A DNA stretch of 64,000 nt from a virus (Duplodnaviria > Heunggongvirae > Uroviricota > Caudoviricetes), in the IMG/VR virus record IMGVR_UViG_3300045450_000050, positions 71,343-135,342 of that record; one strand, written 5' to 3'. Position 1 is the first letter of the stretch, and each line of letters opens with the position of its first letter. Position numbers and translations under genes: made by a program. Shown piece by piece: positions 1-53,912 of this stretch. Under the pieces are notes generated by a model. The model had not been told where the DNA came from. It did not search any database and saw nothing but the letters and a program-made list of their open reading frames with translations.

Positions 1-288
1 CAGCACCGACGTTCCGGAGATCCGGTACTCCCAGAAGTCGCGTCCCCGGAAGGACTCGTAGAAGAAGCCCTCGGCGTGCTCGTAGCTCCCGCCACGTTCG
101 GGCTCGCGTGCACGCAGCTCCGCCTCTTGCTCGGCAACTTCCTGCGCCCAGTGCTTGGCCTGCTTGCGGGCGCTTTTCAGGCGCTCTTCGAGGTCACGGC
201 GTATGCGCACCCACTCGGCGTTCTCGCGGCGGCTGTGGGCGATGTAGTTCCTCAGCGCTTCGGTGGGGACGAACGAATAGTCAGCCAT
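1..288 (-). CDS. hypothetical protein (5' part; continues beyond window start)
   Basis: Minus-strand ATG at 288..286 (MADYSFVPTEALRNY...), open to position 1, high GC3; not in track because no stop in window. Confidence 0.45.
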   Translation of the reverse strand, partial: MADYSFVPTEALRNYIAHSRRENAEWVRIRRDLEERLKSARKQAKHWAQEVAEQEAELRAREPERGGSYEHAEGFFYESFRGRDFWEYRISGTSVL

Positions 289-333
289 GGCCCAGCTCCT
301 TCAAGGCGAGGGCCATCCGCACGTAGATGCCCA

Positions 334-636
334 TCAGCGTCGCGCCTCCTGGACACGCCGGATGTACTTCTGCTTCAGGGTGAGGGGAGCATCTTCCCAG
401 CGCGTGATGTCGTAGACCGCGCCGATGTAGTCGCGAGCGTCTTGCTCGTCCTCATCGAACCACTTCTTCGCGAGGTCGTCGGTCGAAAGCACGGAAGGAA
501 TCATCTGAGCTTTCACGGGCGGCGAGCTGAAGCGCGGCTTGGGCGTCTCGAAGTTCGCCGTCAGGCCGCAGACTCGGCACCACGGCGGCTTGCCATCGCG
601 GTTCTGGATCGGGTCGTGGTCGTGCTCGACAGGCAT
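334..636 (-). CDS. hypothetical protein (~100 aa)
   Basis: Track ORF 334..918 trimmed to internal ATG 636 (MPVEHDHD...); ATGA overlap with stop of upstream HDAC gene. Confidence 0.6.
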   Translation of the reverse strand: MPVEHDHDPIQNRDGKPPWCRVCGLTANFETPKPRFSSPPVKAQMIPSVLSTDDLAKKWFDEDEQDARDYIGAVYDITRWEDAPLTLKQKYIRRVQEARR

Positions 637-1556
637 CAGTTCTCCGTCAGTTCGGCGTTGAGAGCGAGCACGACCTGTGCCCACGCCACGGGGGTGTACG
701 TGAAGGGGGTGTAGCCACCCGCGCCGCCTGCGAGCACGGGAATGCCCAGGTCGTGCGCCATCTCGCCGACACGGTGCGCCGCATCGGTCAAGCCTTCGAT
801 GGTGTACTTCAGGCCCCCCAGGGGATCTTCGGTGAGGCCATCTGCGCCGATGGCGAGCAGCAGCACATCGGGACCGAAGTCCTGGATCTTGTCGATGGCT
901 ACGCGGACGGCATTCCACAGCGCGGTGTCACCGTCGCCCTCGGTCAGCGGAAAGTTGTAGGCGTTCAGCAGCTCGCGCGACGTGTTGCCAGTGCCCGGGT
1001 AGATCCCCTGCTGGTGGATCGAGATCGTGAGCACGTTCGGATTGTCGAGAGTGAGGTCCTCGACGCCGTCACCGTGATGCACATCCCAATCCAAGTACGC
1101 CACGCGCTTGCCCTGGTCGGTGAAGAACTTCGCGGCCCACGCCATGTCGTTGAGCGCGCAGAAGCCCGCGCTGTGCGCGTATGCGGCGTGGTGCTTCGCA
1201 CCCTGAGGGTTGAAGAACACCTCGCGCGGGTAGCCCCGGCGCACGACCTCCTGCGCAAGCGCACGGGTGCCTGCGAACATCATCGGTGCGACGTACGAAC
1301 CCTGCTCACCGGGATGCGTCAGATCACGGCCATCGAACAGGTCGTCGATGTACTGCGGGTCGTGGATCTCCTTCAGACGCTCGCGGTCAGCGTCCCGGTT
1401 GGTCTTCGCCGGGCTCGGGATGATGACGTTGACGGGAGTCCCGTCGTTGTCGGCCTCAGCCTTGATGTGCTTGACGGCGAGGTAGGCGCGCTGGGGGGAC
1501 GCGTGCGAGCCCGTCCAGTCGAGATATGCGGGGCTGTAGCCGATGTGGATGGTCAT
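636..1556 (-). CDS. histone deacetylase-family protein (HDAC/AcuC/acetylpolyamine amidohydrolase-like)
   Basis: 306 aa; HDAC signature DWDVHHGDG and AHSAGFCALND; RBS GAAGGA upstream of ATG 1556. Confidence 0.85.
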   Translation of the reverse strand: MTIHIGYSPAYLDWTGSHASPQRAYLAVKHIKAEADNDGTPVNVIIPSPAKTNRDADRERLKEIHDPQYIDDLFDGRDLTHPGEQGSYVAPMMFAGTRALAQEVVRRGYPREVFFNPQGAKHHAAYAHSAGFCALNDMAWAAKFFTDQGKRVAYLDWDVHHGDGVEDLTLDNPNVLTISIHQQGIYPGTGNTSRELLNAYNFPLTEGDGDTALWNAVRVAIDKIQDFGPDVLLLAIGADGLTEDPLGGLKYTIEGLTDAAHRVGEMAHDLGIPVLAGGAGGYTPFTYTPVAWAQVVLALNAELTEN

Positions 1557-1685
1557 GAGGTCCTTCTTTCCATCAGGCCACTCTTAGGCCTAATAAATGC
1601 AGTATACGCGCTAACCGAGGGCTCCGCTAGTAGATAGGCTGCTTCGCATGGCGACTGGGATGTGCGAAGCCCTCGGAGTCTTTGG

Positions 1686-1934
1686 TTACTCGGGCTGGCC
1701 GGTGATCGGATTGCGGCCCAGAGCGCGCTGGATGTTGTGCTCGACCGCGGCGGCGAGGCACTCGATGGAGCAGGCGTAGGTCTTCGGAATCGGTCCACCC
1801 CCTGCCCCTGTTGCCCAGGAGCCCTTGCCGAGGTGGTAGCCGGAAGTCGCCGTGACTCCTTCGAAGTCAACTTCTTCCTCCTCGCCGCACTCTGCGTTGT
1901 CGCAGATCAGGATCTTGGCCGTGCGCATACCCAT
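1686..1934 (-). CDS. small Cys-rich hypothetical protein
   Basis: Track ORF 1686..2012 trimmed to ATG at 1934 (MGMRTAKILICDNAECG...); ATGA overlap with upstream stop. Confidence 0.55.
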   Translation of the reverse strand: MGMRTAKILICDNAECGEEEEVDFEGVTATSGYHLGKGSWATGAGGGPIPKTYACSIECLAAAVEHNIQRALGRNPITGQPE

Positions 1935-2272
1935 CAGAGTCCTTCCCGGTACGCCAACATCGTCAGCGCATACCGCTTCATCAAGTAGTAGTTGTGCTTG
2001 GAGGACTGCCACATGTCTCCATACAAGAGACCGAACAGCGCCGCGATGATGAACTTGTCCCAGTAGTCACCGCCGCTGATGTCGGTGATGAGCAGCCCGA
2101 TCCCGGCGAAGAGATTGAGAACGATGGTGGGCAGACCCGCGAGCCAGACGCCCCACTTCTGGGCCGCACCCAGCTTGCGGTACTTCTCGGCTTCGTCGCG
2201 CATGTACTGCTCGTAGTGCTCGTCGGAGAAGAACTGGTCGGGGGTGCGGGGGTTGAACTCTTGCTGAATCAC
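1934..2272 (-). CDS. membrane protein, hypothetical
   Basis: 112 aa with two predicted TM helices (WLAGLPTIVLNLFAGIGLLI.., FIIAALFGLLYG). Confidence 0.7.
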   Translation of the reverse strand: MIQQEFNPRTPDQFFSDEHYEQYMRDEAEKYRKLGAAQKWGVWLAGLPTIVLNLFAGIGLLITDISGGDYWDKFIIAALFGLLYGDMWQSSKHNYYLMKRYALTMLAYREGL

Positions 2273-2469
2273 TGCGGCTCCTCGGGCTCGACGATAACGG
2301 ACGCCAGCGTGGCATGGATCTGTGCGATGGCGAGCTGGTGAGTGATGTTCTGGTTGAGCACGGCGATGACGCTGGGGTTCAGGAGCTTGTCACTTCCGGC
2401 TGCGCTGACGGCCAGTGCCGACTCCAGGTACTTCTCCGCTGCCTGGTAGTGCTCTTCACGAGTAGCCAT
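2269..2469 (-). CDS. hypothetical protein (66 aa)
   Basis: Trimmed from track ORF 2269..2919 to MATREEHYQAAEKYLE...; ATGA overlap with upstream stop. Confidence 0.55.
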   Translation of the reverse strand: MATREEHYQAAEKYLESALAVSAAGSDKLLNPSVIAVLNQNITHQLAIAQIHATLASVIVEPEEPQ

Positions 2470-2678
2470 CAGCGACCCCACCGTCCTGTTTCCTTGACCC
2501 AGCGCTCCTGGTCGACTTTCCACCCCTTGAAGGGCGGGTTCCCCTGCGAGACGGGCTGCTGCGGCTTGGGAGTGGGCTCTGCCACCTTGGGTGCCTCCGG
2601 GGCCTTGGGTGCGTCGGGCAGGACGATGGCGTCCAGGCCCAGAGTGGATGCGCGGCGGCGCGGGCGTCGAGTTCTCAC
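2469..2678 (-). CDS. hypothetical protein (69 aa)
   Basis: Track ORF; Pro/Lys-rich; start overlaps upstream stop. Confidence 0.5.
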   Translation of the reverse strand: MRTRRPRRRASTLGLDAIVLPDAPKAPEAPKVAEPTPKPQQPVSQGNPPFKGWKVDQERWVKETGRWGR

Positions 2679-3295
2679 ACGACAGCCTTGCCGTCGAGCA
2701 CGCCGCGGACATAGGCCGCACGTGCTTCCGCGTTGCGGTCGACGCCGGGCTCGCCGTCTTGCGGGGGGTACAGCTCCAGCGCTCGATTCTCGATTCGAGT
2801 CTGTGCTTCGTCAGCCCGCTTAGCCAGCATCTCGGCGAGGTCACGGTGCCCCTTCGGAATCCAGTCCTCGTCGTAGTGATCGAGGGTGATCTCGTACAGC
2901 GACATGCCCTTGTACTCACGGGGGGAGTACACGTCGATCTTGCCCACCGGCACGTCGGCGTCGGCGTAGTAGCGCGTGGTTGACGTGCCCAGCTCCATGA
3001 CGAGGCCGCGACCCATCTCGGTCGCCTTCTCCTGGGCCTCTCGGCGCTGCGTCACGTCGAAGCTGGCGGGCTTGATGTCCAGGCGTGTCACGTTGTCGGG
3101 GTGGGCGAAGTGGTTCGCGTAGGTCTCGCCTTCGCTGAGTCGTGCGTGCATGAGGGTCTCCTGCCTCTTGGTCTCTTCGTCGAACGCTGCCATGATGGCC
3201 GCGCCCTCTCGGTTCGCCTTCTTGCTACCGCCATAGATCAGGTAGAAGATCGCGTTCTTCAGATCTTGTCGACGGGTTTTGCGGGTGGGGATCAC
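2675..3295 (-). CDS. hypothetical protein (~206 aa, GTG start)
   Basis: Track ORF 2675..3637 trimmed to GTG 3295 (VIPTRKTRRQDL...) with GAAGAG RBS; GTGA overlap with upstream stop. Confidence 0.6.
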   Translation of the reverse strand: MIPTRKTRRQDLKNAIFYLIYGGSKKANREGAAIMAAFDEETKRQETLMHARLSEGETYANHFAHPDNVTRLDIKPASFDVTQRREAQEKATEMGRGLVMELGTSTTRYYADADVPVGKIDVYSPREYKGMSLYEITLDHYDEDWIPKGHRDLAEMLAKRADEAQTRIENRALELYPPQDGEPGVDRNAEARAAYVRGVLDGKAVV

Positions 3296-3546
3296 GGCAT
3301 TCTCTTCAAGATCAGGTAGTCCTTCACCTTGCCGATGCGCCCGTGTGTCGGGCACTCCACCGGCTCGTTGGGGTTGAGCTTGCGCCAGGTATCGATGAGA
3401 CCGGCGTGCTCGTTGCAGAGGTACATGAGCTGGCCGGTCTCGGCCTCGCACTCGGGCCCGTAGATGAACTGCGCAGGCGCACCGCAGCCGCGGGGGCCGA
3501 TGAAGGTCTGGATGGTCGTCTCGCAGACGAACTCGCTGGCGTCCAT
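3292..3546 (-). CDS. small Cys-rich hypothetical protein (84 aa)
   Basis: Trimmed to MDASEFVCETT...; several Cys (zinc-ribbon-like); ATGA overlap. Confidence 0.6.
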   Translation of the reverse strand: MDASEFVCETTIQTFIGPRGCGAPAQFIYGPECEAETGQLMYLCNEHAGLIDTWRKLNPNEPVECPTHGRIGKVKDYLILKRMP

Positions 3547-3917
3547 CAGATGTTTCCGTCCGCCACACGCTCGTTCGCAGTCGGCTCTTCGACGGGGGTG
3601 CGTGTGCTGTGCGTGTCGAGCCACTCCTGGGCATCACTGATGTCGACGAGGGTGGTGAGGTTGGCCACCGCGGCGATGAGCGCCTTCACGTCACGCTTGC
3701 GCGCGCTGTGCGTGTTCTTGTGCGTGTCGAGCCACTCCTGGGCGTCACGAGCAGTGTCGATGGCCTGCGAGAGCGTTATCTGACGACGCATCCGCTCCTG
3801 TTGTGCTTCGCGTTCCTGCTTGTCGAGCGCTGCACGCGCGTCGACTCGCGAAAGGAACTCGGGCTCGTCTGTCGTGACGGGCCCTGATGTCTTGGGGCGG
3901 CGGCTGAAAAGTCGCAT
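3546..3917 (-). CDS. hypothetical protein with internal duplication
   Basis: Trimmed to MRLFSRRPKTSG...; peptide DAQEWLDTH occurs twice, encoded by a ~40-bp direct repeat at ~3599-3640 and ~3709-3750. Confidence 0.6.
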   Translation of the reverse strand: MRLFSRRPKTSGPVTTDEPEFLSRVDARAALDKQEREAQQERMRRQITLSQAIDTARDAQEWLDTHKNTHSARKRDVKALIAAVANLTTLVDISDAQEWLDTHSTRTPVEEPTANERVADGNI

Positions 3918-3918
3918 G

Positions 3919-4125
3919 TCAGGCTTCCTCGTAGTGGGTGATCCGCATGGGATCGAAGTTCTCGGGCGGATTGATGGCGACGAACATGGTGTGCTCACCA
4001 TCCTTCTTCGCACGAACCGGTACGCGGGTGCCATCATCGAGGACGGCGATTCGTGTGCTCATGTCCGTGATACTCCGGATGGAGCAGGCACATTCACCGT
4101 TAGGTCGACCGTTACACGAGCACAT
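3919..4125 (-). CDS. small Cys-rich hypothetical protein (68 aa)
   Basis: AAGGAA RBS 5 nt before ATG 4125; N-terminal CxC..CxC. Confidence 0.6.
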   Translation of the reverse strand: MCSCNGRPNGECACSIRSITDMSTRIAVLDDGTRVPVRAKKDGEHTMFVAINPPENFDPMRITHYEEA

Positions 4126-4492
4126 CGTGGTTCCTTACTGCCGTCAATGCGGCTTCCAGCTTCTTGCGGTGCACGTGCTTGCGAGCCAGCTCCTTGTCGA
4201 GGGTGGTGAAGCCCCACTGCGCCCCGCAACGGCAAACCCAGTCGCCCCTGAAGCTGGACTCGACCTTGTGGTGCTTGCTCTGCGTCTCCATGGCCTGGAG
4301 GGCGCGGGCGATGTCGACCTCGCTCCAAGTGCCCCGAGTCTTCGGGCTCATGCGGTCACGGACAGCTTGACGCAGCGCTTCAACAGCGTCGCCACGCGCG
4401 TTGGCCAGGTAGGTCCGCACGAAACTTTCCAGGCGCGCTGCGCGCCGGGGGCTCGGTGTCAGCACGGGCTCGCCCGTCTTGTTGTCGATCAT
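4112..4492 (-). CDS. hypothetical protein (126 aa)
   Basis: Trimmed from 4112..4855 to MIDNKTGEPVLTP...; ATGA overlap. Confidence 0.65.
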   Translation of the reverse strand: MIDNKTGEPVLTPSPRRAARLESFVRTYLANARGDAVEALRQAVRDRMSPKTRGTWSEVDIARALQAMETQSKHHKVESSFRGDWVCRCGAQWGFTTLDKELARKHVHRKKLEAALTAVRNHDVLV

Positions 4493-4812
4493 CGTTCCTT
4501 CACCACCGTCATGTCCCATCCCTGGTTGACGGCGTCCTGCTCGTGGTCCCTGATCCAATTCAGGCCCTCGGTCTTGGTGTCGAAGCGATAGGGCAGGCGG
4601 TTGTGGACGGTGCTGCCCACCTCGTTCTGCCGCTCCATGTCGATGCGCCACTTCAGGTCGATGATGCGCACGCCCTCGGCGTAGAGAGTCGCGGCGACCT
4701 CTCGGTGGTAGCTGAGGTAGTGGCTGAATGTGGTGTGCTTCGCCTCTGCCTGATGCAGCGCGAGGGCCAGCTTCTCGATGGCCTTGGCCTCGATATCGTC
4801 CAGATGTGTCAT
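4489..4812 (-). CDS. hypothetical protein (107 aa)
   Basis: Trimmed to MTHLDDIEAKAIEK...; ATGA overlap. Confidence 0.65.
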   Translation of the reverse strand: MTHLDDIEAKAIEKLALALHQAEAKHTTFSHYLSYHREVAATLYAEGVRIIDLKWRIDMERQNEVGSTVHNRLPYRFDTKTEGLNWIRDHEQDAVNQGWDMTVVKER

Positions 4813-5282
4813 CAGGCGCGCCCTCGCTCCTGGCGGACGTACTTGTAGCGACCACGGATCTCGGTCACCATCTGATCGCGCTTGGCCTGGTCCAGCTCGC
4901 TCCACGGCATGAAGGCGGCGGTGAAGCCGTTGGTCTCATAGACCGCACGTGTCACGTCCTCCCAGAACTTGTCGGTGTTCTGCGGCTGAGTGAGCAGCGC
5001 CACGACGACCGTATCGATGTCGCGGTGCTGGTAGCCGAGCTGGCCGTTCGAGTCGGCGACGGCATCCAAGCGCTCGACGGCAGCGTGGACCTCGGCATCG
5101 CGCGGGAGGAGCAGGAACATGCCCTCCACGATTGCCTTGATGGACTTGCTGCCCTCGACGATCTCGGCCTGCGCAGCATCGGAGCGGCCCTGCTTGGCGT
5201 GGGCGAGCGCGGTGTTGAGGCGGTACATCAGCTCCGCCTGGAGCTTGTCGACCACAGCGTTCTGAATGGGGTTGTTCGGCAT
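4812..5282 (-). CDS. hypothetical protein (156 aa)
   Basis: Full track ORF; promoter-like motif at 5321-5354 upstream. Confidence 0.75.
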   Translation of the reverse strand: MPNNPIQNAVVDKLQAELMYRLNTALAHAKQGRSDAAQAEIVEGSKSIKAIVEGMFLLLPRDAEVHAAVERLDAVADSNGQLGYQHRDIDTVVVALLTQPQNTDKFWEDVTRAVYETNGFTAAFMPWSELDQAKRDQMVTEIRGRYKYVRQERGRA

Positions 5283-5320
5283 GATGCCCTTTCGCTAGGC
5301 GAGTGCTTTCGACCCGCAGA

Positions 5321-5354
5321 TTGATTATTGCACGTTACGCGCTATCGCACAAAG
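5321..5354 (-). promoter_or_regulatory. promoter-like motif copy
   Basis: TTGATTATTGCACGTTACGCGCTATCGCACAAAG. Confidence 0.55.
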
Positions 5355-5560
5355 AGGGACAAGACCGTGCCGCCGAGTACCACGCCAAGCAGAGCAATGA
5401 GCGCGACGAGCGGCCATGTCCAGCGGTCACTGCGCTTGGGCTTGTCCCAAACGGCGCGGTGACCGTAGTCGGCGGGATGGACGTGGCGGAAGGTGTTCTT
5501 GGCGGTGACATAGATCGCGCAGTCGCACTCGGCGCACTTCAGGTACTGGGGCCGAGTCAT
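5342..5560 (-). CDS. small membrane protein with N-terminal CxxC
   Basis: 72 aa, C-terminal TM helix; 3' end overlaps promoter motif. Confidence 0.65.
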   Translation of the reverse strand: MTRPQYLKCAECDCAIYVTAKNTFRHVHPADYGHRAVWDKPKRSDRWTWPLVALIALLGVVLGGTVLSLFVR

Positions 5561-5865
5561 CGGTCACCTCCATACAGCCAATAGCCGTCACTAACATCAT
5601 TTTCGTAGCCCACCAGGACCCAGCTTTGTTTATCTACGTGACGGGGTCCGTGCGTAGAAACGTCCTCTGTGCAGCGCACGCGCTTTCCCGGCGAGTTTTC
5701 CCACGTGAAGCCGCACCGCCCATCGGCCGTGGCGGTCTGCCGCAGGCCGCGCTCACAGATGTCGAAGTGCTCGGTCAGGCTCTTGGCGATGGTCGCGGGC
5801 GAGGCGGCGTAGATCAAGCCGAACCGGATGTGCTTCTCAATCTCGCGCTCGATGTCACTTGCCAC
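5557..5865 (-). CDS. hypothetical protein (GTG start; alternative ATG 5937)
   Basis: GAGAGGAA RBS before in-frame GTG 5865; the ATG at 5937 would overlap the upstream gene by 83 nt. Confidence 0.5.
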   Translation of the reverse strand: MASDIEREIEKHIRFGLIYAASPATIAKSLTEHFDICERGLRQTATADGRCGFTWENSPGKRVRCTEDVSTHGPRHVDKQSWVLVGYENDVSDGYWLYGGDR

Positions 5866-6094
5866 GGTTGCGTTCCTCTCGGATTTCCCGCAGACGCCGG
5901 AGCATGTAATCGCGGTACTCGGGCCCAGTCGAGTCATCGCTGGGGGTCTGGAGAGCTGTTCCCACGTCGTCCCAGGCGTTTTCGAGCTGGGTCCGAAGCT
6001 CGACGAACCGAGGCAGGAGCCACAGCCCTGTCGCGAGGGAGCCGACGAACAAGCCCATGACGACGAGGAAGACGTACAGGATCGTCTCTTGCAT
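5855..6094 (-). CDS. membrane protein (79 aa)
   Basis: Track ORF; N-terminal TM helix. Confidence 0.65.
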   Translation of the reverse strand: MQETILYVFLVVMGLFVGSLATGLWLLPRFVELRTQLENAWDDVGTALQTPSDDSTGPEYRDYMLRRLREIREERNRGK

Positions 6095-38827: not shown

Positions 38828-39274
38828 CTACTGCTTCGAGCGCAGTTCCAGGTACTCGGGGATGGACTCGGAGCGGATGGCCAGGGGGTTGGCCCGACGC
38901 ACGAAGTCTCGCCACGACATCAGTGAGTCGAACATGGTCGTCATGTTCTCGGGCGTGGGGTCCCGGTAGAACACGGTGATTGCCGTCTGAAACAACTGGT
39001 GCAGCTTCTTGTAGTCCTTGCGCTGCTTCAGCACGCCAAGACGCCAATCGTCCACGGGCACGAGGGTGGCTCGGGGGAGCCCGTCGTCGTCGATGGCCTC
39101 GGCGTCAGCGCGACCATCGGTGTAGTACCACTGGTGCTCGCGCTTGGCTTGGAGATAGACCTCCACGCCCCCCTCATCACGCTTGGTGACCTCGACGGGG
39201 AAGAACGAGTTCTGTCGCCCGCTGAGGACGTAAGCCACGTCCCCGACCTTCAGTTCTGCGATGGAATTCACCAT
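38828..39274 (-). CDS. hypothetical protein (148 aa)
   Basis: GAGGAGG RBS before ATG 39274. Confidence 0.65.
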   Translation of the reverse strand: MVNSIAELKVGDVAYVLSGRQNSFFPVEVTKRDEGGVEVYLQAKREHQWYYTDGRADAEAIDDDGLPRATLVPVDDWRLGVLKQRKDYKKLHQLFQTAITVFYRDPTPENMTTMFDSLMSWRDFVRRANPLAIRSESIPEYLELRSKQ

Positions 39275-39909
39275 CCGTAGCCTCCTCGGCGTTGCTGTGC
39301 TTCGATGTGCTCGCGGCCCCACGAAGCCTGCCACTGTGTTCGCCGACCGTACTTACGGTGCAGCTTGTGCATCTCGGGCAGGTTGTCCCCGCTCATGTTG
39401 AGCCAGATGTCGTGCCAGGCCATGTCCCACGTCGTGCCCACGGGCCACTTCATGGCCAAAGCGTCGCCCTGGTGGATCGTGACACGGGGGTCGTCGTAGT
39501 GGGGGGCGATGTGCTTGATGATGCGCTCGTCGATCTCGACAACGTCGATGTGCGCGACGTTGTCGAGCTTCAGCAGGGCACCGAGGATCATCCCTGCACC
39601 GAGGCCGTTGATCACCACACGTGCGTTCGGGATGCGCTGGGCCCGGTAGAAGACATGCGAGTGATCGCGCTTCTCGTCGGGGGTGTCGCTCATCCAGAGG
39701 CGACCGTCGATGTAGACGGTGGTGAGTTTCCCGGCGTTGATGCGCCCACGACCGCCGTCGAGAATGGCGCGGAGGCTGGTCGCGTTGGCCTGCTCCTCGG
39801 TGATCTCCTTGACGGTGACCTTGATGCCGTCGACATCCATCTCAGGCAGGCTCAACTCCATGGCCTCGCGGTAGGTGAGGCTGTGGGGGGCGTATGCGGT
39901 GCTGGTCAC
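39268..39909 (-). CDS. Rossmann-fold class I SAM-dependent methyltransferase / spermidine-synthase-like protein
   Basis: VVINGLGAGMILGALL..VVEIDERII nucleotide-binding pattern. Confidence 0.55.
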   Translation of the reverse strand: MTSTAYAPHSLTYREAMELSLPEMDVDGIKVTVKEITEEQANATSLRAILDGGRGRINAGKLTTVYIDGRLWMSDTPDEKRDHSHVFYRAQRIPNARVVINGLGAGMILGALLKLDNVAHIDVVEIDERIIKHIAPHYDDPRVTIHQGDALAMKWPVGTTWDMAWHDIWLNMSGDNLPEMHKLHRKYGRRTQWQASWGREHIEAQQRRGGYGW

Positions 39910-41781: not shown

Positions 41782-43422
41782 TCACATCTTGGCGAACGCC
41801 GAGATGACCTGGGGAACGGACGAGTCGAAGCCGACCACGTCCAGGGTGCGGGGGTCCTTGGGGTCCGCGACCGAGGACCGCGAGGCGTTGGTCGCCACGA
41901 CGACGAGCTTGGCGTCGATACCCGTTTCCTTGCGGTACTTCGCCAGCTCCTCGTGCGTGTGCGCCGGGCCTGCGTAGGTCTCGTTGTCCGTCATGAGCAC
42001 GAACACGTCGACCTGGATCTTCTGCTCGCGTGCGTAGCGGATCACGCACGACACGTCGGTCATGCGGCCCGTGTGTGCCCGTGCCTCCCACGTTGCCTCC
42101 TGGAGGGTCATGCCCTTTCGGATGCTCAGCGGGTAGGTGTACGCGTCGAAGCCGATGGTGTGGACCTCGGGCTCGATGTTCGCGATAACGCAGGCCATGG
42201 CCGCGCCACCCTCGGACGCCGTCATGTTGGGCACGTCAGCGATGCGAGCACCCATCGATCCGGAGGTGTCCACGCCCACGAGGTAGCGCAGACCCGTGGG
42301 CTCTGCGAACTTGAACGCGAGATGGAACGCCTCGTCGAGCGCGGCGATGATGCGCTGGTTGGGCACCCAAGTGGCCGTCGAGCGGGCCTGGGTGGAGTGA
42401 CCGAGCGCGTACGCCTTCTGGGCGAGCAGGATCGTCATCGGGTGCAGGCGCGCCTTGGCCAGCGCGTCACGATCCGTCAGACGGTCCACCACGAGCTGCG
42501 TCTTGCCTCCGAGGGGAACGATGACACCGATGCGCGTCAGACGCGAGAGCTGGCGGAGCAGCGCGCCCAGGGGCACGTTGTTGTTCTCCAGCAGGGCCGT
42601 CCAGACCGCCTCGTTGTTCAGCGCCGACGAGGGCAGCATCTCCCACGACAGGCCGTACGTCTTGATGATCGAGATCAGCTCGGACACCTTGGCGCTGGGC
42701 GTGTTCTCCCACTCCAGGGCCTTCAGGTTGCCGGTGACAGCCTTGGGCAGCAGCACGCGCGAGGGGTCTTCGACGCGGCCGAGCGTGTAGTCCATGAGGT
42801 GGCGGAACAGCTCGTCCTCGCTCGACTTGGTGGGCCGAGCGAGCTTGATCAGGTCGGCGTGCGACCATCCCTCGCGGTTCTTGTACTTCGTGAGCTGGTA
42901 GCCGAGGCGCTCGATGTCCTTGCCCTCGTACCAGCGCTTGAACGCCTTGCGGGCACCCATACCGAAGCCCTTGCCTCCGCGAAGGTTCTTCAGGAACTCG
43001 GCGAACATGAACAGCGTCGTGCCCGTACGGCAGACCTTGTCGACCTGCTGGTACGCGTAGCTGCGCGCGGCGTCGTCCTCGGTGGTCGCGATGACCAGAG
43101 CGAGCGCGAAGATGGCGGGGTCCTGCTTGGGAGCGCGGCCCTCGACCGAGACCGAGACGATGAGATCGATCAGTTCGAACACCTTGTCGGTGCGAGCCAC
43201 GTCCTCGATGTCGCTGACGCGCTTCAGCGTCAGCTTCTGGCCGGTCTGGTAGAAGCCGCTCTCGGCACCGAGGATGAGGAAGCGCTTGATGGCTTCCATC
43301 TTGCCGACCTTGAAGACGTAGCCGCCCGCGGCGTTCTTCTTCTGCTCGGGTGCGGCCTTCTTCGTGCCGGGCGTGGTCTTCTGAACGGGTGCTCCGACCG
43401 TGCGGAGAGTGCTGTTACCCAT
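41782..43422 (-). CDS. rsr: Ro60-like TROVE-domain protein with C-terminal vWA/MIDAS domain
   Basis: 546 aa after trimming the track ORF to ATG 43422 (AAAGGA RBS); N-terminal GGYVFKVGKMEAIKRFLILGAESGFYQ, C-terminal MIDAS VGVDTSGSMG; adjacent Y-RNA-like array. Confidence 0.8.
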   Translation of the reverse strand: MGNSTLRTVGAPVQKTTPGTKKAAPEQKKNAAGGYVFKVGKMEAIKRFLILGAESGFYQTGQKLTLKRVSDIEDVARTDKVFELIDLIVSVSVEGRAPKQDPAIFALALVIATTEDDAARSYAYQQVDKVCRTGTTLFMFAEFLKNLRGGKGFGMGARKAFKRWYEGKDIERLGYQLTKYKNREGWSHADLIKLARPTKSSEDELFRHLMDYTLGRVEDPSRVLLPKAVTGNLKALEWENTPSAKVSELISIIKTYGLSWEMLPSSALNNEAVWTALLENNNVPLGALLRQLSRLTRIGVIVPLGGKTQLVVDRLTDRDALAKARLHPMTILLAQKAYALGHSTQARSTATWVPNQRIIAALDEAFHLAFKFAEPTGLRYLVGVDTSGSMGARIADVPNMTASEGGAAMACVIANIEPEVHTIGFDAYTYPLSIRKGMTLQEATWEARAHTGRMTDVSCVIRYAREQKIQVDVFVLMTDNETYAGPAHTHEELAKYRKETGIDAKLVVVATNASRSSVADPKDPRTLDVVGFDSSVPQVISAFAKM

Positions 43423-43445
43423 GGATGTCGTCCTTTCGATCAGGG

Positions 43446-43502
43446 CATAGAAAAATCCCGGGGGTGGACTGGCTGTTGGCCAGTATGGGACCCACCCCCG
43501 GG
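43446..43502 (-). terminator. intrinsic terminator between the Y-RNA-like array and rsr
   Basis: Minus-strand hairpin CCCGGGGGUGG...CCACCCCCGGG followed by AUUUUUCU. Confidence 0.6.
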
Positions 43503-43504
43503 AC

Positions 43505-43737
43505 GGGGAATCCAGACAGGAGATCGCTGCGCGAGGATCTAGGCAGTGATAACGCGGAGCTAACAGCCTGGAAAGTTTAGTGGGCAGACAGGAAACGCAA
43601 TCGGGAATGGTTGTTTGAGTTTGAGTCAAATTGATAACCCGGAAGCAGCAGCCTGCTCATGTGAAGTTGTAAGGCCCGACAGGAAACGACCCGGGAGAGT
43701 ATCACCACAAGATAACCCGGACCAGACAGCCTGGCCT
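43505..43737 (-). ncRNA. three tandem short Y-RNA-like stem modules (no tRNA-like domain)
   Basis: Each starts CAGGCUG-N-(C/G)GGUUAUC and ends CCUGUCUG, with complementary 5' and 3' arms. Confidence 0.4.
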
Positions 43738-47862: not shown

Positions 47863-47963
47863 GGGTCGGTCCTCCAGGGGACATGCCGAACAAGGGAGTA
47901 TCGGCACAGGGAGTATCGGCCTGGCATGTGAACGTGCGGGTGCTCGATATACGAGACTTGCTG

Positions 47964-48036
47964 TGGAAACGGGGAGACTCGAACTCCCGACATCCTGCTT
48001 GCAAAACAGGCGCTCTACCAACTGAGCTACGCCCCC
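47964..48036 (-). tRNA. tRNA-Ala(UGC)
   Basis: Cloverleaf by eye; G3:U70; anticodon loop UUUGCAA. Confidence 0.75.
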
Positions 48037-48124
48037 ATGGGTGATGCTGAAGTGAGTCACCGATCAGTTCGAGAGTCCGGTTATCTACGAGAGGGCCCCT
48101 CCGGGCGTCCCACTCACTTCTGCG

Positions 48125-48197
48125 TGGCCAGGGCTGGACTTGAACCAGCGACCCCCGTCTTATCAGGACGGTGCTCTACCTGCTGAGCTACATGACC
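48125..48197 (-). tRNA. tRNA-Ile(GAU)
   Basis: Anticodon loop CUGAUAA; one acceptor mismatch. Confidence 0.65.
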
Positions 48198-48198
48198 G

Positions 48199-48278
48199 TG
48201 GAGAGGCAGGCGGGAATCGAACCCGCGTTCTCATCCGCTACAGGTGTCCGGGTTAGAACTCCGGCCTGATACTGCCCC
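48199..48278 (-). tRNA. atypical tRNA-like gene with encoded CCA (possible Arg(UCU)); aberrant D-arm region
   Basis: Canonical T-arm GCGGG-UUCGAUU-CCCGC, 7-bp acceptor stem and CCA; anticodon-like loop GUUCUAA; no standard D-arm. Confidence 0.35.
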
Positions 48279-48293
48279 GTGATTCTGAAATTG

Positions 48294-48363
48294 AAGCGCT
48301 AGCGGGAGTCGAGCCCGCAACCAAGACTTTGCAGGTCCTGTTCGCCTACCCGGTCATAGCGCC
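48294..48363 (-). tRNA. tRNA-Cys(GCA)
   Basis: Anticodon loop CUGCAAA. Confidence 0.6.
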
Positions 48364-48364
48364 G

Positions 48365-48436
48365 TAGGCCCCCCGGGGATCGAACCCGAGACCCCTGGAT
48401 TAAAAGTCCGGTGCTCTGCCACTGAGCTAGAGGCCC
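48365..48436 (-). tRNA. tRNA-Lys(UUU)
   Basis: Anticodon loop CUUUUAA. Confidence 0.7.
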
Positions 48437-48437
48437 G

Positions 48438-48508
48438 CACCGGAAGCTGGATTCGAACCAACGTGAACGGCTCCAAAGGCCGTCGTCCTGCCACTAAACG
48501 ATTCCGGT
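48438..48508 (-). tRNA. tRNA-Gln(UUG)
   Basis: Anticodon loop CUUUGGA; A1:U72. Confidence 0.65.
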
Positions 48509-48512
48509 AAAG

Positions 48513-48584
48513 CACCCCATCCTGGTTACGATCCAAGGACTTCTGCTCCAGAGGCAGACGTGTTGCCGATTACACCAACGGGGT
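48513..48584 (-). tRNA. tRNA-Gln(CUG)
   Basis: Anticodon loop CUCUGGA; T-loop AUCGUAA. Confidence 0.65.
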
Positions 48585-48657
48585 ATAGCTCTTTGTCGCC
48601 AGGTGAGCAATGCCTGGAGGGGACCTATCAACCCCTCGCCAGTCGTGCGCGCAACGT

Positions 48658-48728
48658 GCCCCACGCAGGTATCGAACCCGCGACCTCCAGTTCCGGAAAC
48701 TGGCGCTCTTCCACTGAGCTAGAAGGGC
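48658..48728 (-). tRNA. tRNA-Arg(CCG)
   Basis: Anticodon loop UUCCGGA. Confidence 0.65.
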
Positions 48729-48792
48729 AAAGAAGGTCCGGGGTGCTACGAATGTGGCCGAAGCCTAGTCAATGGATTGTCGAACCTTCTGG

Positions 48793-48864
48793 TGCCCTCG
48801 GCAGGAGTCGAACCTACATCCCTGGTTCCGTAGACCAGTGTCGTGTCCGTTGGACGACGAGGGC
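48793..48864 (-). tRNA. tRNA-Arg(ACG)
   Basis: Anticodon loop CUACGGA. Confidence 0.75.
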
Positions 48865-48928
48865 GTCGATGGTGGGTCATCACCCTGTGTGGGACTCGTC
48901 GTAGGGGCCCCTACCCTCTTATGTTGCG

Positions 48929-49001
48929 CTCCCCGAGCTGGACTCGAACCAACGACCCTGCGGTTAACAGCCGCGCACTCTACCAACTGAGCTATCGGGG
49001 A
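48929..49001 (-). tRNA. tRNA-Asn(GUU)
   Basis: Anticodon loop CUGUUAA. Confidence 0.75.
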
Positions 49002-49096
49002 ATACGATCAGTTCACGCCACGCGACTTCCGAGCCGGAATCGAACCGACTCAGAGGGGGTCTCGAACCCCATTCTGATCAGAGCCACCAGGCTCTT

Positions 49097-49169
49097 GTGG
49101 GCCGTGAGGGACTCGAACCCCCGCGCATCTCCGTGTAAAGGAGCAGCTCTGCCGCTGAGCTAACGGTCC
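49097..49169 (-). tRNA. tRNA-Val(UAC)
   Basis: Anticodon loop UUUACAC; A3-C70 mismatch. Confidence 0.65.
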
Positions 49170-49240
49170 ATGTGTCGCGCTACCCGTCCCCATGGGCCAG
49201 GTCTGCATTCCCTTGATGCGCGACTACCAAGGTTCCAGCG

Positions 49241-49314
49241 TGCCGACGACAGGAATCGAACCCGCGTCCTCCTTATTACAAGTAAGGTGCTCGGCCAGCG
49301 TGAGCTACATCGGC
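49241..49314 (-). tRNA. tRNA-Thr(UGU)
   Basis: Anticodon loop CUUGUAA. Confidence 0.7.
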
Positions 49315-49379
49315 GTGCGAGGCGGCATGATTTGTGACCTTTGCGCTTCTCTCCGGGACGGTCAGGCGGAGACCTCTTG

Positions 49380-49494
49380 TGTGCGTGACAGACGGGGAGC
49401 GAGTCCTGGGGTGCCCACCAATCGGGCGTATGACCTAGCGGCCACAGGTGGAGTCGAACCATCGATAACCAGAAGCTCTTCAGCCTGTCGTGCG
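49380..49494 (-). ncRNA. Y-RNA-like ncRNA with permuted tRNA-like domain (module 6) inside the tRNA cluster
   Basis: 5' GACAGGCUGAAGAGCUUCUGGUUAUCG matches the rsr-proximal modules; T-arm GAUGG-UUCGACU-CCACC, acceptor-like UGUGGCC/GGUCAUA closed by GCUA, D-arm GCCC-GAUUGGU-GGGC. Confidence 0.5.
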
Positions 49495-49568
49495 TGCAGT
49501 GAACGGGGTCCGAACCCGTGACCTCCTCGTTGGCAACGAGGTGCTCTGCCAGATTGAGCTACCACTAC
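49495..49568 (-). tRNA. tRNA-Gly(GCC)
   Basis: Anticodon loop UUGCCAA. Confidence 0.7.
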
Positions 49569-49658
49569 GGAGTGTGGGACGGGCTCCAACTTCGCCCTTC
49601 CTGAGGCCCACACGGCCCCAACGGATTTCGGATCGCGATCCAGGCATTCCTACCTTCG

Positions 49659-49732
49659 AGAGGTATACGAGACTCGAACTCGTTCTATTCCACTTTGGAA
49701 GAGTGGTGCCGCACCATATCGGCATATACCCC
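49659..49732 (-). tRNA. tRNA-Gly(UCC)
   Basis: Anticodon loop CUUCCAA. Confidence 0.7.
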
Positions 49733-49788
49733 AGAAGAGTCTCGACACCGCTAAACGCAGTCGTCACCACTTGCAATGTCGGACCCCG

Positions 49789-49860
49789 TGCTCCCCCGGA
49801 ATTTCGAAATCCGGACCCTCCGGTTAAGAGCCGGATGCTCTGCCTCTGAGCTAGAGGAGC
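49789..49860 (-). tRNA. tRNA-Lys(CUU)
   Basis: Anticodon loop CUCUUAA. Confidence 0.65.
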
Positions 49861-50050
49861 GTTAGGTGGGGCCCAAGCGAGTGCGCTTACTCGCCCGGCC
49901 CCGGAGATTGTCGGATCTCACCCTGCCACACCATTCAGTGGCCTAAACCTGCCCTGTAACCCAAGGCAGGATTATGGGCCAGACTCTGCGTCTGATGACA
50001 GCCAGGATCTCGCCTGGTCACAAACGTTGGGCTGACGACCCTCGGTGACT

Positions 50051-50084
50051 CGATTAAAGCATGTCACGCGCTAACGCGCAACTC
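50051..50084 (-). promoter_or_regulatory. promoter-like motif copy upstream of the main tRNA cluster
   Basis: CGATTAAAGCATGTCACGCGCTAACGCGCAACTC. Confidence 0.5.
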
Positions 50085-50085
50085 G

Positions 50086-50171
50086 CGGAAGAAGGAGGGC
50101 ACGATCCCCACACCGTTGCCGGTGCCTCCGGTTAGCAACCGGGCTACAGGACCCCCCGTAGATCGTCTTCC
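50086..50171 (-). tRNA. tRNA-Ser(GCU), class II, atypical T-loop
   Basis: Anticodon loop UUGCUAA; variable arm CACCG-GCAA-CGGUG; T-loop AUCGUGC. Confidence 0.5.
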
Positions 50172-50175
50172 ATGG

Positions 50176-50259
50176 CGGAGAGAGGAGGGCACGATCCCCA
50201 CACCTTGCAGTGCTGCACGCTTTCCAAGCGTGAGTCGGGACCTCCCGATCTTCACTCTC
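50176..50259 (-). tRNA. tRNA-Ser(GGA), class II, atypical T-loop
   Basis: Anticodon loop UUGGAAA; shares the GGAGGGCACGAUCCCCACACC segment with the neighbouring Ser tRNA. Confidence 0.5.
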
Positions 50260-50275
50260 CATGCATGAAGACTCG

Positions 50276-50363
50276 GCGGAAGGTGGGAGGGTCGAACTCC
50301 CACGCCCTTTCGAGCAAGCACTTTTCGAGAATGCCGCCGCCGCCAACTATCGGCTGGACCTTC
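50276..50363 (-). tRNA. tRNA-Ser(CGA), class II
   Basis: Anticodon loop CUCGAAA; variable arm closed by GAAA; T-arm GGGAG-UUCGACC-CUCCC. Confidence 0.6.
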
Positions 50364-52707: not shown

Positions 52708-52711
52708 CTGC

Positions 52712-52954: not shown

Positions 52955-52957
52955 GAG

Positions 52958-53509: not shown

Positions 53510-53554
53510 AGGGGCTCCTCTGTCAGGCCTACCTCAATATCGGGAGTATCGGAC

Positions 53555-53869: not shown

Positions 53870-53912
53870 GTCCTGAGTATCGGACTTCAGTCCGCATGCG
53901 ACAGAATACGAA

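What the first reader, a model, noticed from the sequence alone, without database searches (positions are those of the whole stretch)
636..1556. Phage-encoded HDAC-family deacetylase
A complete HDAC/AcuC-type enzyme (DWDVHHGDG, GFCALND) with its own terminator, promoter and RBS context, inside an operon of small unknown early proteins. Lysine or polyamine deacetylases are uncommon in phages. It could reverse host acetylation-based regulation or defence, or modify polyamines for DNA packaging.
Basis: partly seen in the sequence, partly recalled or inferred. Interest (0 to 1): 0.55.

Follow-up and report, generated by a model that had tools for sequence, protein, structure and literature searches.

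The report
Phage-borne divergent AcuC-like zinc deacylase
A 135-kb Microbacterium-type phage carries an apparently intact zinc-dependent deacetylase of the histone-deacetylase family, from an unstudied branch shared by actinobacteria and their phages, so it is a good candidate for a virus-encoded "eraser" of protein acyl marks.

Summary

It is neither a canonical AcuC nor an acetylpolyamine amidohydrolase. It belongs to a separate, compact clade closest to actinobacterial AcuC. That clade has an invariant PQGAKHH motif (Lys in place of the class I foot-pocket Leu/Trp), AGGY, a Leu "PLG" gatekeeper, and no class I L2 loop.

The clade is rare in cultured phages: no PHROG, no phage entry in BFVD, and 8 of 50,697 phage records. 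It occurs on at least 138 IMG/VR contigs, usually next to a dual-specificity phosphatase. In freshwater actinobacterial genomes it sits in NrtR-vWA-HDAC-phosphatase-chaperone operons that resemble predicted anti-viral de-modification systems.

The most likely function is a protein acyl-lysine deacylase used during infection. This is inferred, not shown. The polyamine reading is disfavoured. A conserved promoter-like motif and an RBS are present. "Own terminator" is not supported, and "early" cannot be tested.

The parts
636..1556 (-). HDAC-family (arginase/deacetylase fold) Zn-dependent deacylase gene, 306 aa, member of the 'PQGAKHH/AGGY' clade
1561..1565 (-). Shine-Dalgarno-like AAGGA, 5-9 nt upstream of the ATG
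   Evidence: Read directly from the sequence.
1597..1618 (-). Conserved promoter-like motif TCGGTTAGCGCGTATACTGCAT. It is a variant, without a -35 element, of a phage promoter family that shares the core GTTAGCGCG.
   Evidence: Identical over 22 of 22 nt upstream of Magritte gp204, although the two genomes share no megablast-level DNA identity. Unique in the window at up to 3 mismatches, with 0 expected by chance. The core recurs about 20 times on the minus strand of the window and in Magritte. Function as a promoter is inferred.
334..636 (-). Downstream 100-aa ORF whose ATG overlaps the HDAC stop codon (CTGATG), so it is probably translationally coupled. Function unknown, and not conserved in relatives.
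   Evidence: Junction sequence. Called as a gene on the same contig in public assemblies. No Pfam hit. No homologue in Magritte or the other loci.

Best explanation
The gene encodes a catalytically competent, zinc-dependent amidohydrolase of the histone-deacetylase family. It belongs to a distinct compact clade of about 300 aa, restricted mostly to Actinomycetota and their phages, whose nearest named relatives are bacterial AcuC proteins.

The proposed chemistry is the standard HDAC mechanism. Zn2+ is held by D158, H160 and D239. A water molecule is activated by the H122/H123 pair. The acyl carbonyl is polarised by Tyr282. The substrate chain is threaded between F132 and Y186.

The most likely substrate is an N-epsilon-acyl-lysine on a protein. 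On this reading the phage makes the enzyme from its own promoter during infection to strip acyl marks from host or phage proteins, either to reset acetylation-controlled host functions or to undo a host-imposed modification.

Shown here: family membership, the intact active site, the separate clade, conservation at the syntenic position in Magritte-like phages, and the gene neighbourhoods of relatives. Inferred: protein rather than small-molecule substrate, the identity of the targets, and the benefit to the phage.

Two clade-specific changes in the foot pocket (Lys121 for Leu/Trp, Ala279 for Gly) and the missing L2 loop suggest an acyl preference and a substrate-docking mode different from class I HDACs and AcuC.
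For: Family and fold:
- Pfam PF00850 at 181.5 bits.
- AF2 model with pLDDT 94.5.

Active site:
- Mapped onto HDAC8, whose sequence was verified as 1t64_A.
- R37 to R23, H142/H143 to H122/H123, G151-F152-C153 to G131-F132-C133, D176/D178/H180 to D156/D158/H160, S199 to S179, F208 to Y186, D267 to D239, Y306 to Y282.
- All of these except Y186 are invariant in 47 homologues; the column of Y186 is mostly Phe (GIFPGTG in the consensus).

Features pointing to a lysine substrate rather than a polyamine:
- The gatekeeper is Leu246 in a DPLGG motif (L246 invariant, P245 in at least 90% of the 47 sequences), like lysine deacetylases and unlike PEG in HDAC10 or PIS in APAH (criteria from PMC11532494).
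- The XGGY motif is AGGY, which fits cluster 2 (G/A)GGY.
- Family-profile scores are AcuC-like 166-196 bits, class I 135-149, APAH-like 97.

Conservation:
- The orthologue sits at the syntenic place in Magritte.
- Close relatives lie on other 104-135 kb phage contigs, while the flanking genes are not conserved.

Guilt by association in relatives:
- A DSPc protein-phosphatase-type gene lies directly upstream and co-directional in 61 of the 81 loci scored (80 IMG/VR loci plus the window), and in the locus in 73 of the 80 IMG/VR loci, next to a proteasome-like Ntn hydrolase.
- In actinobacterial genomes the clade sits in operons with vWA and TY-Chap3 peptide-binding chaperones, a DSP phosphatase and an NrtR-like regulator.
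Against: - There is no biochemical evidence for any member of this clade.
- None of the partner genes (DSP, vWA, chaperones) is present in this window, in Magritte or on the sampled parts of the contig. The association argument is therefore transferred from homologues that are 40-45% identical.
- The window encodes no acetyltransferase, ADP-ribosyltransferase, sirtuin or macro domain that would indicate a target pathway.
- The class I Asp that docks the peptide backbone (HDAC8 D101) has no counterpart. That would be compatible with a non-peptide substrate.
- DSP-type phosphatases and the NrtR/Macro/Nudix context can also point to nucleotide or sugar-phosphate substrates (PMC9503650).
- Placement relative to cluster 5 (HDAC11-like) enzymes is unresolved. 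Structure favours the compact cluster-5-like proteins by a small margin, while the sequence profile favours AcuC and class I.
Confidence: 0.5

Rival explanations
1. Acetylpolyamine amidohydrolase. The enzyme would release free putrescine, spermidine or cadaverine from their N-acetylated, inactive forms, to support translation or charge neutralisation of the 135-kb genome during packaging.
For: - APAHs are HDAC-fold enzymes.
- Giant viruses encode active APAHs, and viruses widely manipulate spermidine (PMC9992855).
- A linear acetylated amine would fit the conserved F132/Y186 tunnel.
- The missing peptide-docking Asp is compatible with a non-peptide substrate.
- One ORF in the window (39268-39909) gives a weak spermidine-synthase-type hit.
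Against: - The APAH signatures RPPGHH and EGGY are absent; the protein has PQGAKHH and AGGY.
- The gatekeeper is PLG, not PIS or PEG.
- The 306-aa core has no room for the L1/L2 polyamine-specificity loops.
- The systematic survey in PMC9992855 found viral APAH homologues only in Imitervirales.
- The spermidine-synthase-like ORF lacks GGGDGG (it has GLGAGM) and lacks the DSxDP motif expected from general knowledge of aminopropyltransferases, so it looks like a generic methyltransferase fold.
Confidence: 0.15
2. A deacylase acting on a non-protein metabolite or signal in a virus-host conflict, for example an acylated nucleotide, an ADP-ribose derivative or another small amide or ester. It would work together with, or descend from, the NrtR-regulated phosphatase/Macro/Nudix systems of actinobacteria. 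The phage copy would destroy or mimic that signal.
For: - Cellular clade members sit in operons with an NrtR-like Nudix-wHTH regulator, ARPP-1 (2e-53), DSP and HD phosphatases, an NT5C nucleotidase and a Macro domain (4e-38).
- This matches the architecture of the 'ARG-centric' systems, which were predicted to process ADP-ribose adducts (PMC9503650).
- The unusual invariant Lys121 in the foot pocket and the missing peptide-docking loop would suit a charged, non-peptide acyl group.
Against: - The lysine tunnel and gatekeeper are of the protein-deacetylase type.
- The same operons contain vWA and TY-Chap3 proteins, which were predicted to bind peptides.
- None of these partners is in this phage.
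- No HDAC-fold enzyme is known to act on nucleotide-linked acyl groups (my own knowledge).
Confidence: 0.15
3. A recently captured host gene carried as a passenger with no dedicated role, or a decaying or non-catalytic copy.
For: It lies in a long run of small, poorly conserved genes whose neighbours differ between related phages. Phages often carry such cargo.
Against: - The nearest cellular homologue is only about 43% identical. Phage orthologues at 55-64% identity form their own clade and keep the syntenic position.
- GC content and GC3 match the rest of the genome (65% against 63.7%; GC3 0.85).
- Every catalytic residue is retained, and the residues of the double-His pair, the metal sites, the GFC motif and the catalytic Tyr are invariant.
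- The gene has its own conserved upstream motif.
Confidence: 0.07

Closest known systems
Bacterial AcuC (e.g. B. subtilis / S. aureus AcuC; cluster 2c of Graf et al. 2024, PMC11532494)
   Same: AcuC is the highest-scoring named family against the clade profile: actinobacterial AcuC-like 166-196 bits and S. aureus AcuC 159 bits. It is the sister group in the NJ tree. It shares the double-His pair, the GFC motif, DxDxHHGDGVE, the Zn ligands and an XGGY motif of the (G/A)GGY type.
   Different: The protein is 306 aa, against about 390-400 aa for AcuC. XGGLHH is replaced by the invariant QGAKHH (Gly to Ala, Leu to Lys). The L2 loop is shortened. There is no acuA/acuB or acetyl-CoA synthetase context. 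The gene is phage-borne. Identity is only 32-40%.
Eukaryotic class I HDACs (HDAC8, HDAC1-3, Rpd3/Clr6)
   Different: There is no counterpart of the substrate-docking Asp (HDAC8 D101). Lys replaces the foot-pocket residue W141 (L139 in HDAC1). Ala replaces G303. The C-terminal helices are absent. Identity is about 25%.
Compact bacterial deacylases: PDB 5zmp 'lysine deacylase', 5ji5, V. cholerae HdaH (cluster 5b), Leptospira HDAC11
   Different: Identity is 22-28%. Cluster 5 foot-pocket motifs are GGG(Y/F)HH and (G/S)GGY and are linked to long-chain deacylation. Here the motifs are QGAKHH and AGGY. No relationship beyond the shared core was established.
Acetylpolyamine amidohydrolases (M. ramosa APAH, Pseudomonas ApaH; giant-virus APAHs of Li et al. 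2023, PMC9992855)
   Same: They share the fold and the metal chemistry, and there is a viral precedent for HDAC-fold enzymes.
Rhodococcus phage E3 gp202 'putative histone deacetylase'
   Same: It is the only other clearly phage-encoded HDAC-domain protein found among cultured phages. It is also from a roughly 140-kb actinophage and is also about 300 aa.
   Different: It belongs to a different subfamily (SSGLHH, DFDAHCGGG, LAGGY). It is 26% identical and scores 69.5 bits against the clade profile. This indicates an independent acquisition.
'ARG-centric' predicted anti-ADP-ribosylation conflict systems (Iyer, Burroughs, Anantharaman, Aravind 2022, PMC9503650)
   Same: Cellular members of this HDAC clade sit in operons with the same parts list: an NrtR-like Nudix-HTH regulator, ARPP-1, vWA, a rhodanese-phosphatase-type DSP, TY-Chap3, HD and NT5C phosphatases, a Macro domain, PD-(D/E)XK and HNH nucleases, and a helicase-nuclease.
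   Different: No ADP-ribosylglycohydrolase was seen within 6 kb on either side among the neighbours scanned. The HDAC sits in the core of the operon, and the paper does not mention an HDAC or arginase-fold component. The phage in this window has the HDAC alone.

Membership tests
HDAC / classical Zn-dependent deacylase superfamily (Pfam PF00850) | Profile match above the curated threshold over the whole domain | tested here: met
   181.5 bits against a cut-off of 27.9; residues 20-298 on profile positions 4-297 of 298.
HDAC / classical Zn-dependent deacylase superfamily (Pfam PF00850) | Arginase/deacetylase alpha/beta fold, closer to deacylases than to ureohydrolases | tested here: met
HDAC / classical Zn-dependent deacylase superfamily (Pfam PF00850) | Double-His pair, Asp-His-Asp zinc ligands, catalytic Tyr in XGGY, and the GFC tunnel motif | tested here: met
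   H122/H123, D158/H160/D239, Y282 in AGGY, and G131-F132-C133. All are invariant in 47 homologues and map onto HDAC8 H142/H143, D178/H180/D267, Y306 and G151-C153.
HDAC / classical Zn-dependent deacylase superfamily (Pfam PF00850) | Zn2+-dependent amide hydrolysis | not testable with these tools
   Requires an enzyme assay.
AcuC / class I-like (cluster 2 of Graf et al. 2024) | XGGLHH motif preceding the catalytic His pair | tested here: not met
   The motif is QGAKHH (PQGAKHH, residues 117-123). K121 and A120 are conserved across the clade.
AcuC / class I-like (cluster 2 of Graf et al. 2024) | (G/A)GGY motif | tested here: met
   A279-G280-G281-Y282.
AcuC / class I-like (cluster 2 of Graf et al. 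2024) | Nearest neighbour by sequence | tested here: met
   Clade profile scores: AcuC-like 159-196 bits, class I 135-149, APAH-like 97, E3 gp202 69.5. AcuC-like proteins are the sister group in the NJ tree, which has no bootstrap support and includes no cluster 5 references.
AcuC / class I-like (cluster 2 of Graf et al. 2024) | L2-loop Asp that docks the substrate peptide backbone (HDAC8 D101), and a length of about 390 aa with a C-terminal extension | tested here: not met
   There is a 9-residue gap opposite HDAC8 D101-F109, so D101 has no counterpart. The protein ends at residue 306. The alignment in this loop is at low identity, so an alternative acidic residue cannot be excluded.
AcuC / class I-like (cluster 2 of Graf et al. 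2024) | acuABC or acetyl-CoA-synthetase regulatory context | tested here: not met
   No GNAT, AcuA, AcuB or Acs domain was found among 88 window ORFs. The neighbours are small ORFs of unknown function.
Acetylpolyamine amidohydrolase (cluster 4) | RPPGHH and EGGY motifs, and a PIS (or, in HDAC10, PEG) gatekeeper | tested here: not met
   The protein has PQGAKHH, AGGY and DPLGG, with L246 invariant.
Acetylpolyamine amidohydrolase (cluster 4) | Extended L1/L2 polyamine-specificity loops forming a head-to-head dimer | tested here: inconclusive
Class IV / HDAC11-like compact deacylases (cluster 5) | Compact core of about 300 aa, and best structural neighbours | tested here: met
Class IV / HDAC11-like compact deacylases (cluster 5) | GGG(Y/F)HH and (G/S)GGY foot-pocket motifs | tested here: not met
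   The protein has QGAKHH and AGGY.
ARG-centric type conflict operon (PMC9503650) | Linked NrtR or WYL regulator, rhodanese-phosphatase, vWA or TY chaperone, and ARPP | tested here: not met
   For this phage, tblastn of all partner families against the window, Magritte and L002 found nothing. The feature is met only for cellular homologues (14 of 20 loci), and no ARG domain was seen there.

The most novel reading that the evidence does not exclude
The PQGAKHH clade would be the hydrolytic 'eraser' of an undescribed actinobacterial conflict module (NrtR | ARPP-vWA-HDAC-DSP phosphatase-TY chaperone) that removes virus-imposed protein modifications. On this reading actinophages have repeatedly captured the eraser, either with the phosphatase in freshwater phages or alone in Magritte-like phages such as this one, to undo host-imposed defensive acylation or phosphorylation. 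The invariant foot-pocket Lys121 would give the clade a non-acetyl preference, possibly for acidic acyl groups such as succinyl or malonyl, which is unknown among zinc HDACs.
Probability: 0.2. Interest if true: 0.75.

Novelty: new variant of a known kind. Interest (0 to 1): 0.55.

Why it matters
Reversible lysine acylation is widespread in bacteria, but no phage-encoded zinc deacylase has been characterised in the literature I could search. This gene family offers a tractable case. A cultured relative exists (Microbacterium phage Magritte gp204, currently annotated "hypothetical protein"). The protein is small and its structure is confidently modelled. The active-site differences are clear enough to mutate.

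If the enzyme removes acyl marks during infection, protein de-acylation would join the known ways in which phages take over or defend themselves against their hosts. The same clade sits in actinobacterial operons that look like anti-viral de-modification systems, so both sides of the conflict may use the same chemistry. At the least, the result lets hundreds of metagenomic and isolate phage genes now labelled "hypothetical" or "AcuC" be annotated more precisely.

Tried and rejected
- The generic sigma-70 and terminator scan of 1-4000 found no promoter and only two terminator-like hits on the opposite strand at 3698. It therefore gives no support for an 'own terminator'. The upstream stem-loop is not significant.
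- Megablast of 1-6000 against the phage collection found nothing. The relationship to Magritte is visible only at protein level.
- NCBIfam, PHROGs and PADLOC gave no hit for the protein. PADLOC also gave no hit for the nine genes of a cellular operon.
- The afdb50 fold library was not available.
- I looked in the window, Magritte and L002 for the partners seen elsewhere (DSP phosphatase, proteasome-like, vWA, TY-Chap3, ARPP, NrtR, HD). None was found.
- I looked for an acetyltransferase, ART, sirtuin or macro domain among 88 window ORFs. None was found.
- The spermidine-synthase-type hit at 39268-39909 was followed up and rejected as a true aminopropyltransferase.
- The immediate flanking ORFs are not conserved in any related locus, so they give no functional clue.
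- The C-terminal tails of the longer homologues have no Pfam match.
- Literature searches for phage HDAC or AcuC returned nothing specific.
- Other 'phage' HDAC hits were examined. The Staphylococcus 'Kay' records and Pseudomonas phage Y10 are unverified records carrying host-type AcuC or APAH genes. They should not be counted as bona fide phage deacetylases.
- Rfam found only tRNAs in the window.
Full report
**1. What is at 636-1556**

The minus strand carries an ATG-started ORF at exactly 636..1556 (306 aa). An AAGGA lies 5-9 nt upstream of the start.

Pfam Hist_deacetyl (PF00850) matches essentially the whole protein, with E = 3.1e-53 and 181.5 bits against a cut-off of 27.9. An AlphaFold2 model built on 47 homologues is confident, with mean pLDDT 94.5 and pTM 0.93.

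**2. Is the active site intact?**

I verified my copy of the human HDAC8 sequence against PDB 1t64_A, where it is identical over 377 of 377 residues. I then added it to the family alignment. The mapping is:

| HDAC8 residue | Role | This protein |
|---|---|---|
| R37 | acetate-channel gate | R23 |
| H142/H143 | catalytic His pair | H122/H123 |
| G151-F152-C153 | GFC tunnel motif | G131-F132-C133 |
| D176, S199 | K+ site | D156, S179 |
| D178/H180/D267 | zinc ligands | D158/H160/D239 |
| F208 | second tunnel wall | Y186 |
| M274 (Leu in HDAC1) | gatekeeper | L246 |
| Y306 | catalytic Tyr | Y282 |

All of these except Y186 are invariant in the 47-sequence alignment; its column is mostly Phe (GIFPGTG in the consensus). 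Nothing suggests a pseudo-enzyme.

**3. Is it in a phage?**

Yes.
- The identical protein is recorded on a 135,342-bp contig.
- The window has 24 tRNA genes in two blocks, and almost all genes lie on one strand.
- tblastn of its ORFs shows it to be collinear, in reverse, with Microbacterium phage Magritte from about 60 to 112 kb, at 40-80% amino-acid identity. Magritte is a 133,228-bp siphovirus.
- There is no megablast-level DNA identity to any phage record.
- Magritte gp204, annotated "hypothetical protein", is the orthologue at the syntenic position, 59.5% identical over 100% of the length.
- Gene composition matches the genome: GC 65% against 63.7%, GC3 0.85.

**4. Transcription context**

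A gap of about 130 bp precedes the gene, and gaps of 76-220 bp precede its orthologues. Within that gap, TCGGTTAGCGCGTATACTGCAT (1597-1618, minus strand) is identical upstream of Magritte gp204. It is unique in the window at up to 3 mismatches, with 0 expected by chance.

Its core, GTTAGCGCG, recurs about 20 times on the coding strand of the window and in Magritte. It mostly appears as TTG(T/C)GC-GTTAGCGCGTGACGTGC-AAGAAT, a sigma-70-like arrangement. The copy upstream of the HDAC gene lacks the -35 part.

I read this as a phage promoter family, so 'own promoter' is plausible. This is an inference.

'Own terminator' is not supported. The TGA overlaps the ATG of a 100-aa downstream ORF at 334-636 (CTGATG). 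No terminator was found. The upstream stem-loop is not better than shuffled sequence (z = -1.64). Nothing bears on 'early'.

**5. Which kind of HDAC?**

Single-sequence searches place the protein about equally far, at roughly 25% identity, from every solved family. The family profile is more discriminating.

| Comparison sequence | Profile score (bits) |
|---|---|
| Actinobacterial AcuC-like proteins | 166-196 |
| S. aureus AcuC | 159 |
| Class I HDACs (Clr6, HDAC1, HDAC2, Rpd3, HDAC8) | 135-149 |
| 5zmp lysine deacylase | 145 |
| HDAC6 domains | about 100 each |
| APAH-like protein | 97 |
| Rhodococcus phage E3 gp202 | 69.5 |

In an NJ tree the protein's relatives form one clade that is sister to actinobacterial AcuC-like proteins. 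The window protein sits inside a Magritte-like sub-clade. The tree has no bootstrap support and includes no cluster 5 references.

The clade is defined by these features:
- PQGAKHH where cluster 2 has XGGLHH.
- AGGY, which is allowed in cluster 2 as (G/A)GGY.
- A length of about 300-340 aa instead of about 395.
- A 9-residue deletion that removes the class I L2-loop Asp (HDAC8 D101).

Lys121 replaces HDAC8 W141 (HDAC1 L139), and Ala279 replaces HDAC8 G303. From general knowledge of class I HDAC structures, both positions line the internal foot pocket.

The APAH signatures of Graf et al. 2024 are absent: RPPGHH, EGGY, the PIS gatekeeper and the L1/L2 loops. The gatekeeper here is Leu, in a PLG motif as in lysine deacetylases, with L246 invariant.

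My verdict is a divergent, compact, AcuC-related lineage. It is neither AcuC proper nor APAH. Its position relative to the compact cluster 5 enzymes remains open.

**6. How common is it?**

Among cultured phages it is rare.
- There is no PHROG family.
- tblastn finds 8 of 50,697 phage records.
- Of those 8, only Magritte belongs to this clade.
- E3 gp202 is a different subfamily.
- The Pseudomonas phage Y10 and Staphylococcus 'Kay' records are flagged UNVERIFIED and carry host-type APAH and AcuC genes.
- BFVD holds HDAC folds only from giant eukaryotic viruses.
- The systematic survey of viral polyamine enzymes found APAH homologues only in Imitervirales (PMC9992855).

In metagenomes the clade is not rare.
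- At least 138 IMG/VR contigs encode a relative, many of them 100-135 kb long.
- Several close homologues recur on dozens of contigs.

**7. Clues from relatives**

In the loci of 73 of the 80 retrieved IMG/VR contigs there is a DSPc dual-specificity phosphatase gene. Most of the retrieved contigs have 43-49% GC. The phosphatase has PF00782 at 2.6e-12 and an intact CX5R motif. Across the 81 loci scored (the 80 IMG/VR loci plus the window), it lies directly upstream and co-directional with the HDAC gene in 61. It is often preceded by a proteasome-like Ntn hydrolase.

In genomes, PQGAKHH-type (or HLPGAKHH-type) proteins occur in Nanopelagicales, Rhodoluna, Aurantimicrobium, other Microbacteriaceae/Micrococcales, Geodermatophilaceae and Nocardioidaceae. 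In 14 of 20 such loci the gene lies in an operon of the form NrtR-like regulator | (ARPP-1) vWA - unknown - HDAC - DSP - TY-Chap3 - HD. These operons carry occasional Macro, PD-(D/E)XK, HNH, NT5C and helicase-nuclease genes.

That parts list is the one described for the 'ARG-centric' systems, which were predicted to undo viral ADP-ribosylation (PMC9503650). Two things differ. I saw no ADP-ribosylglycohydrolase among the neighbours scanned. The paper mentions no HDAC or arginase-fold member. PADLOC does not know these genes.

None of these partners is in this window, in Magritte or on the sampled flanks. The window also encodes no acetyltransferase, ART, sirtuin or macro domain. The immediate neighbours of the gene are unique to this phage.

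**8. Interpretation**

That the protein is an active Zn-dependent amidohydrolase is close to certain. That it belongs to an uncharacterised actinobacterial and actinophage clade is shown.

That its substrate is an acyl-lysine on proteins is the best-supported inference. It rests on:
- the tunnel and the Leu gatekeeper;
- AcuC and class I ancestry;
- repeated linkage in relatives to a protein-phosphatase-type enzyme, a protease-like protein and predicted peptide-binding chaperones.

I put this at about 0.5. The polyamine reading is about 0.15 and is contradicted by every APAH-specific feature tested. A non-protein conflict metabolite is about 0.15 and is kept alive by the NrtR/Macro/phosphatase context, the lost peptide-docking loop and the unusual Lys121. 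A functionless passenger is under 0.1.

**9. Novelty and score**

The enzyme class is well known. What is new is the clade-specific active-site periphery, the phage distribution, and the operon context in hosts. I rate it a new variant of a known kind, with interest 0.55. A specialist would be moderately surprised. The finding also gives a directly testable system, because a cultured phage with the orthologue exists.

Noticed in passing
window minus strand, approx. 5346, 8201, 15578, 16462, 17433, 20712, 21653, 22763, 23631, 24594, 25553, 26147, 27410, 31072, 32010, 43956, 50075; also Magritte (L004-L006): A repeated promoter-like element, TTG(T/C)GC-GTTAGCGCGTGACGTGC-AAGAAT(AGA), precedes many small genes. 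It has a sigma-70-like -35 element, a 17-nt spacer and an extended -10. A second class, GTTAGCGCGTAT..., lacks the -35 element, and the copy upstream of the HDAC gene belongs to this class. The shared GTTAGCGCG core could be a binding site for a phage factor.
   Followed up: partly
window 47963-55417 (-): ARAGORN finds 24 tRNA genes in two blocks, and Rfam confirms 22 of them. Their order is similar to the tRNA array of Magritte.
   Followed up: partly
window 41782-43629 (-): A phage-encoded Ro60-like protein is present (TROVE 5.6e-42, vWA_Ro60 6.1e-47). It is orthologous to Magritte gp118, 'Ro-like RNA binding protein'. Rfam found no Y RNA at gathering threshold, so a partner RNA, if there is one, is not a known family.
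   Followed up: partly
window 39268-39909 (-): A 213-aa methyltransferase-fold ORF, the orthologue of Magritte gp123. Its only Pfam and PDB matches are spermidine synthases (24.6 bits; E about 1e-3). It has GLGAGM instead of GGGDGG and lacks DSxDP, so it is probably not an aminopropyltransferase.
   Followed up: yes
L008-L084 (IMG/VR contigs, 43-49% GC), e.g. L036 4770-6924: A conserved three-gene run, proteasome-like Ntn hydrolase - DSPc phosphatase - HDAC, often with overlapping stop and start codons, lies a few kb from the large terminase. These are probably phages of low-GC freshwater Actinomycetota.
   Followed up: partly
L090-L106 (Nanopelagicaceae, Rhodoluna, Micrococcales genomes/MAGs), e.g. 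L106 1839-9940: An operon of the form NrtR-like | ARPP-1 - vWA - unknown (155-180 aa) - HDAC - DSPc - unknown - TY-Chap3 - HD, with Macro (L100), PD-(D/E)XK, HNH, NT5C and a 1,200-aa helicase-nuclease nearby. It resembles the 'ARG-centric' conflict systems but has an HDAC and no ARG among the neighbours scanned. PADLOC gives no hits.
   Followed up: partly
homologues P0006, P0009, P0023, P0025, P0044 (L007, L167-L170): Many Magritte-clade orthologues are 390-432 aa long. They add an acidic linker and, in most, a strongly basic C-terminus (e.g. ...RRKGKRGRR) with no Pfam match. The window protein and Magritte gp204 lack this extension. It may be a targeting or nucleic-acid-binding tail.
   Followed up: partly
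L094 2771-4750 (Microbacteriaceae MAG): Two HDAC-family genes lie in tandem. One is of the PQGAKHH type and the other is a divergent paralogue with SGQHH.
   Followed up: no
L172 (Pseudomonas phage Y10, UNVERIFIED) and L173 (Staphylococcus phage 'SA 1306 Kay', UNVERIFIED_ORG): These 'phage' records carry a host-type APAH-like gene (RPPGHH...EGGY) and a canonical AcuC-like gene (GGGLHH...GGGGY, 396 aa). They probably reflect host DNA in the assemblies rather than phage genes.
   Followed up: partly
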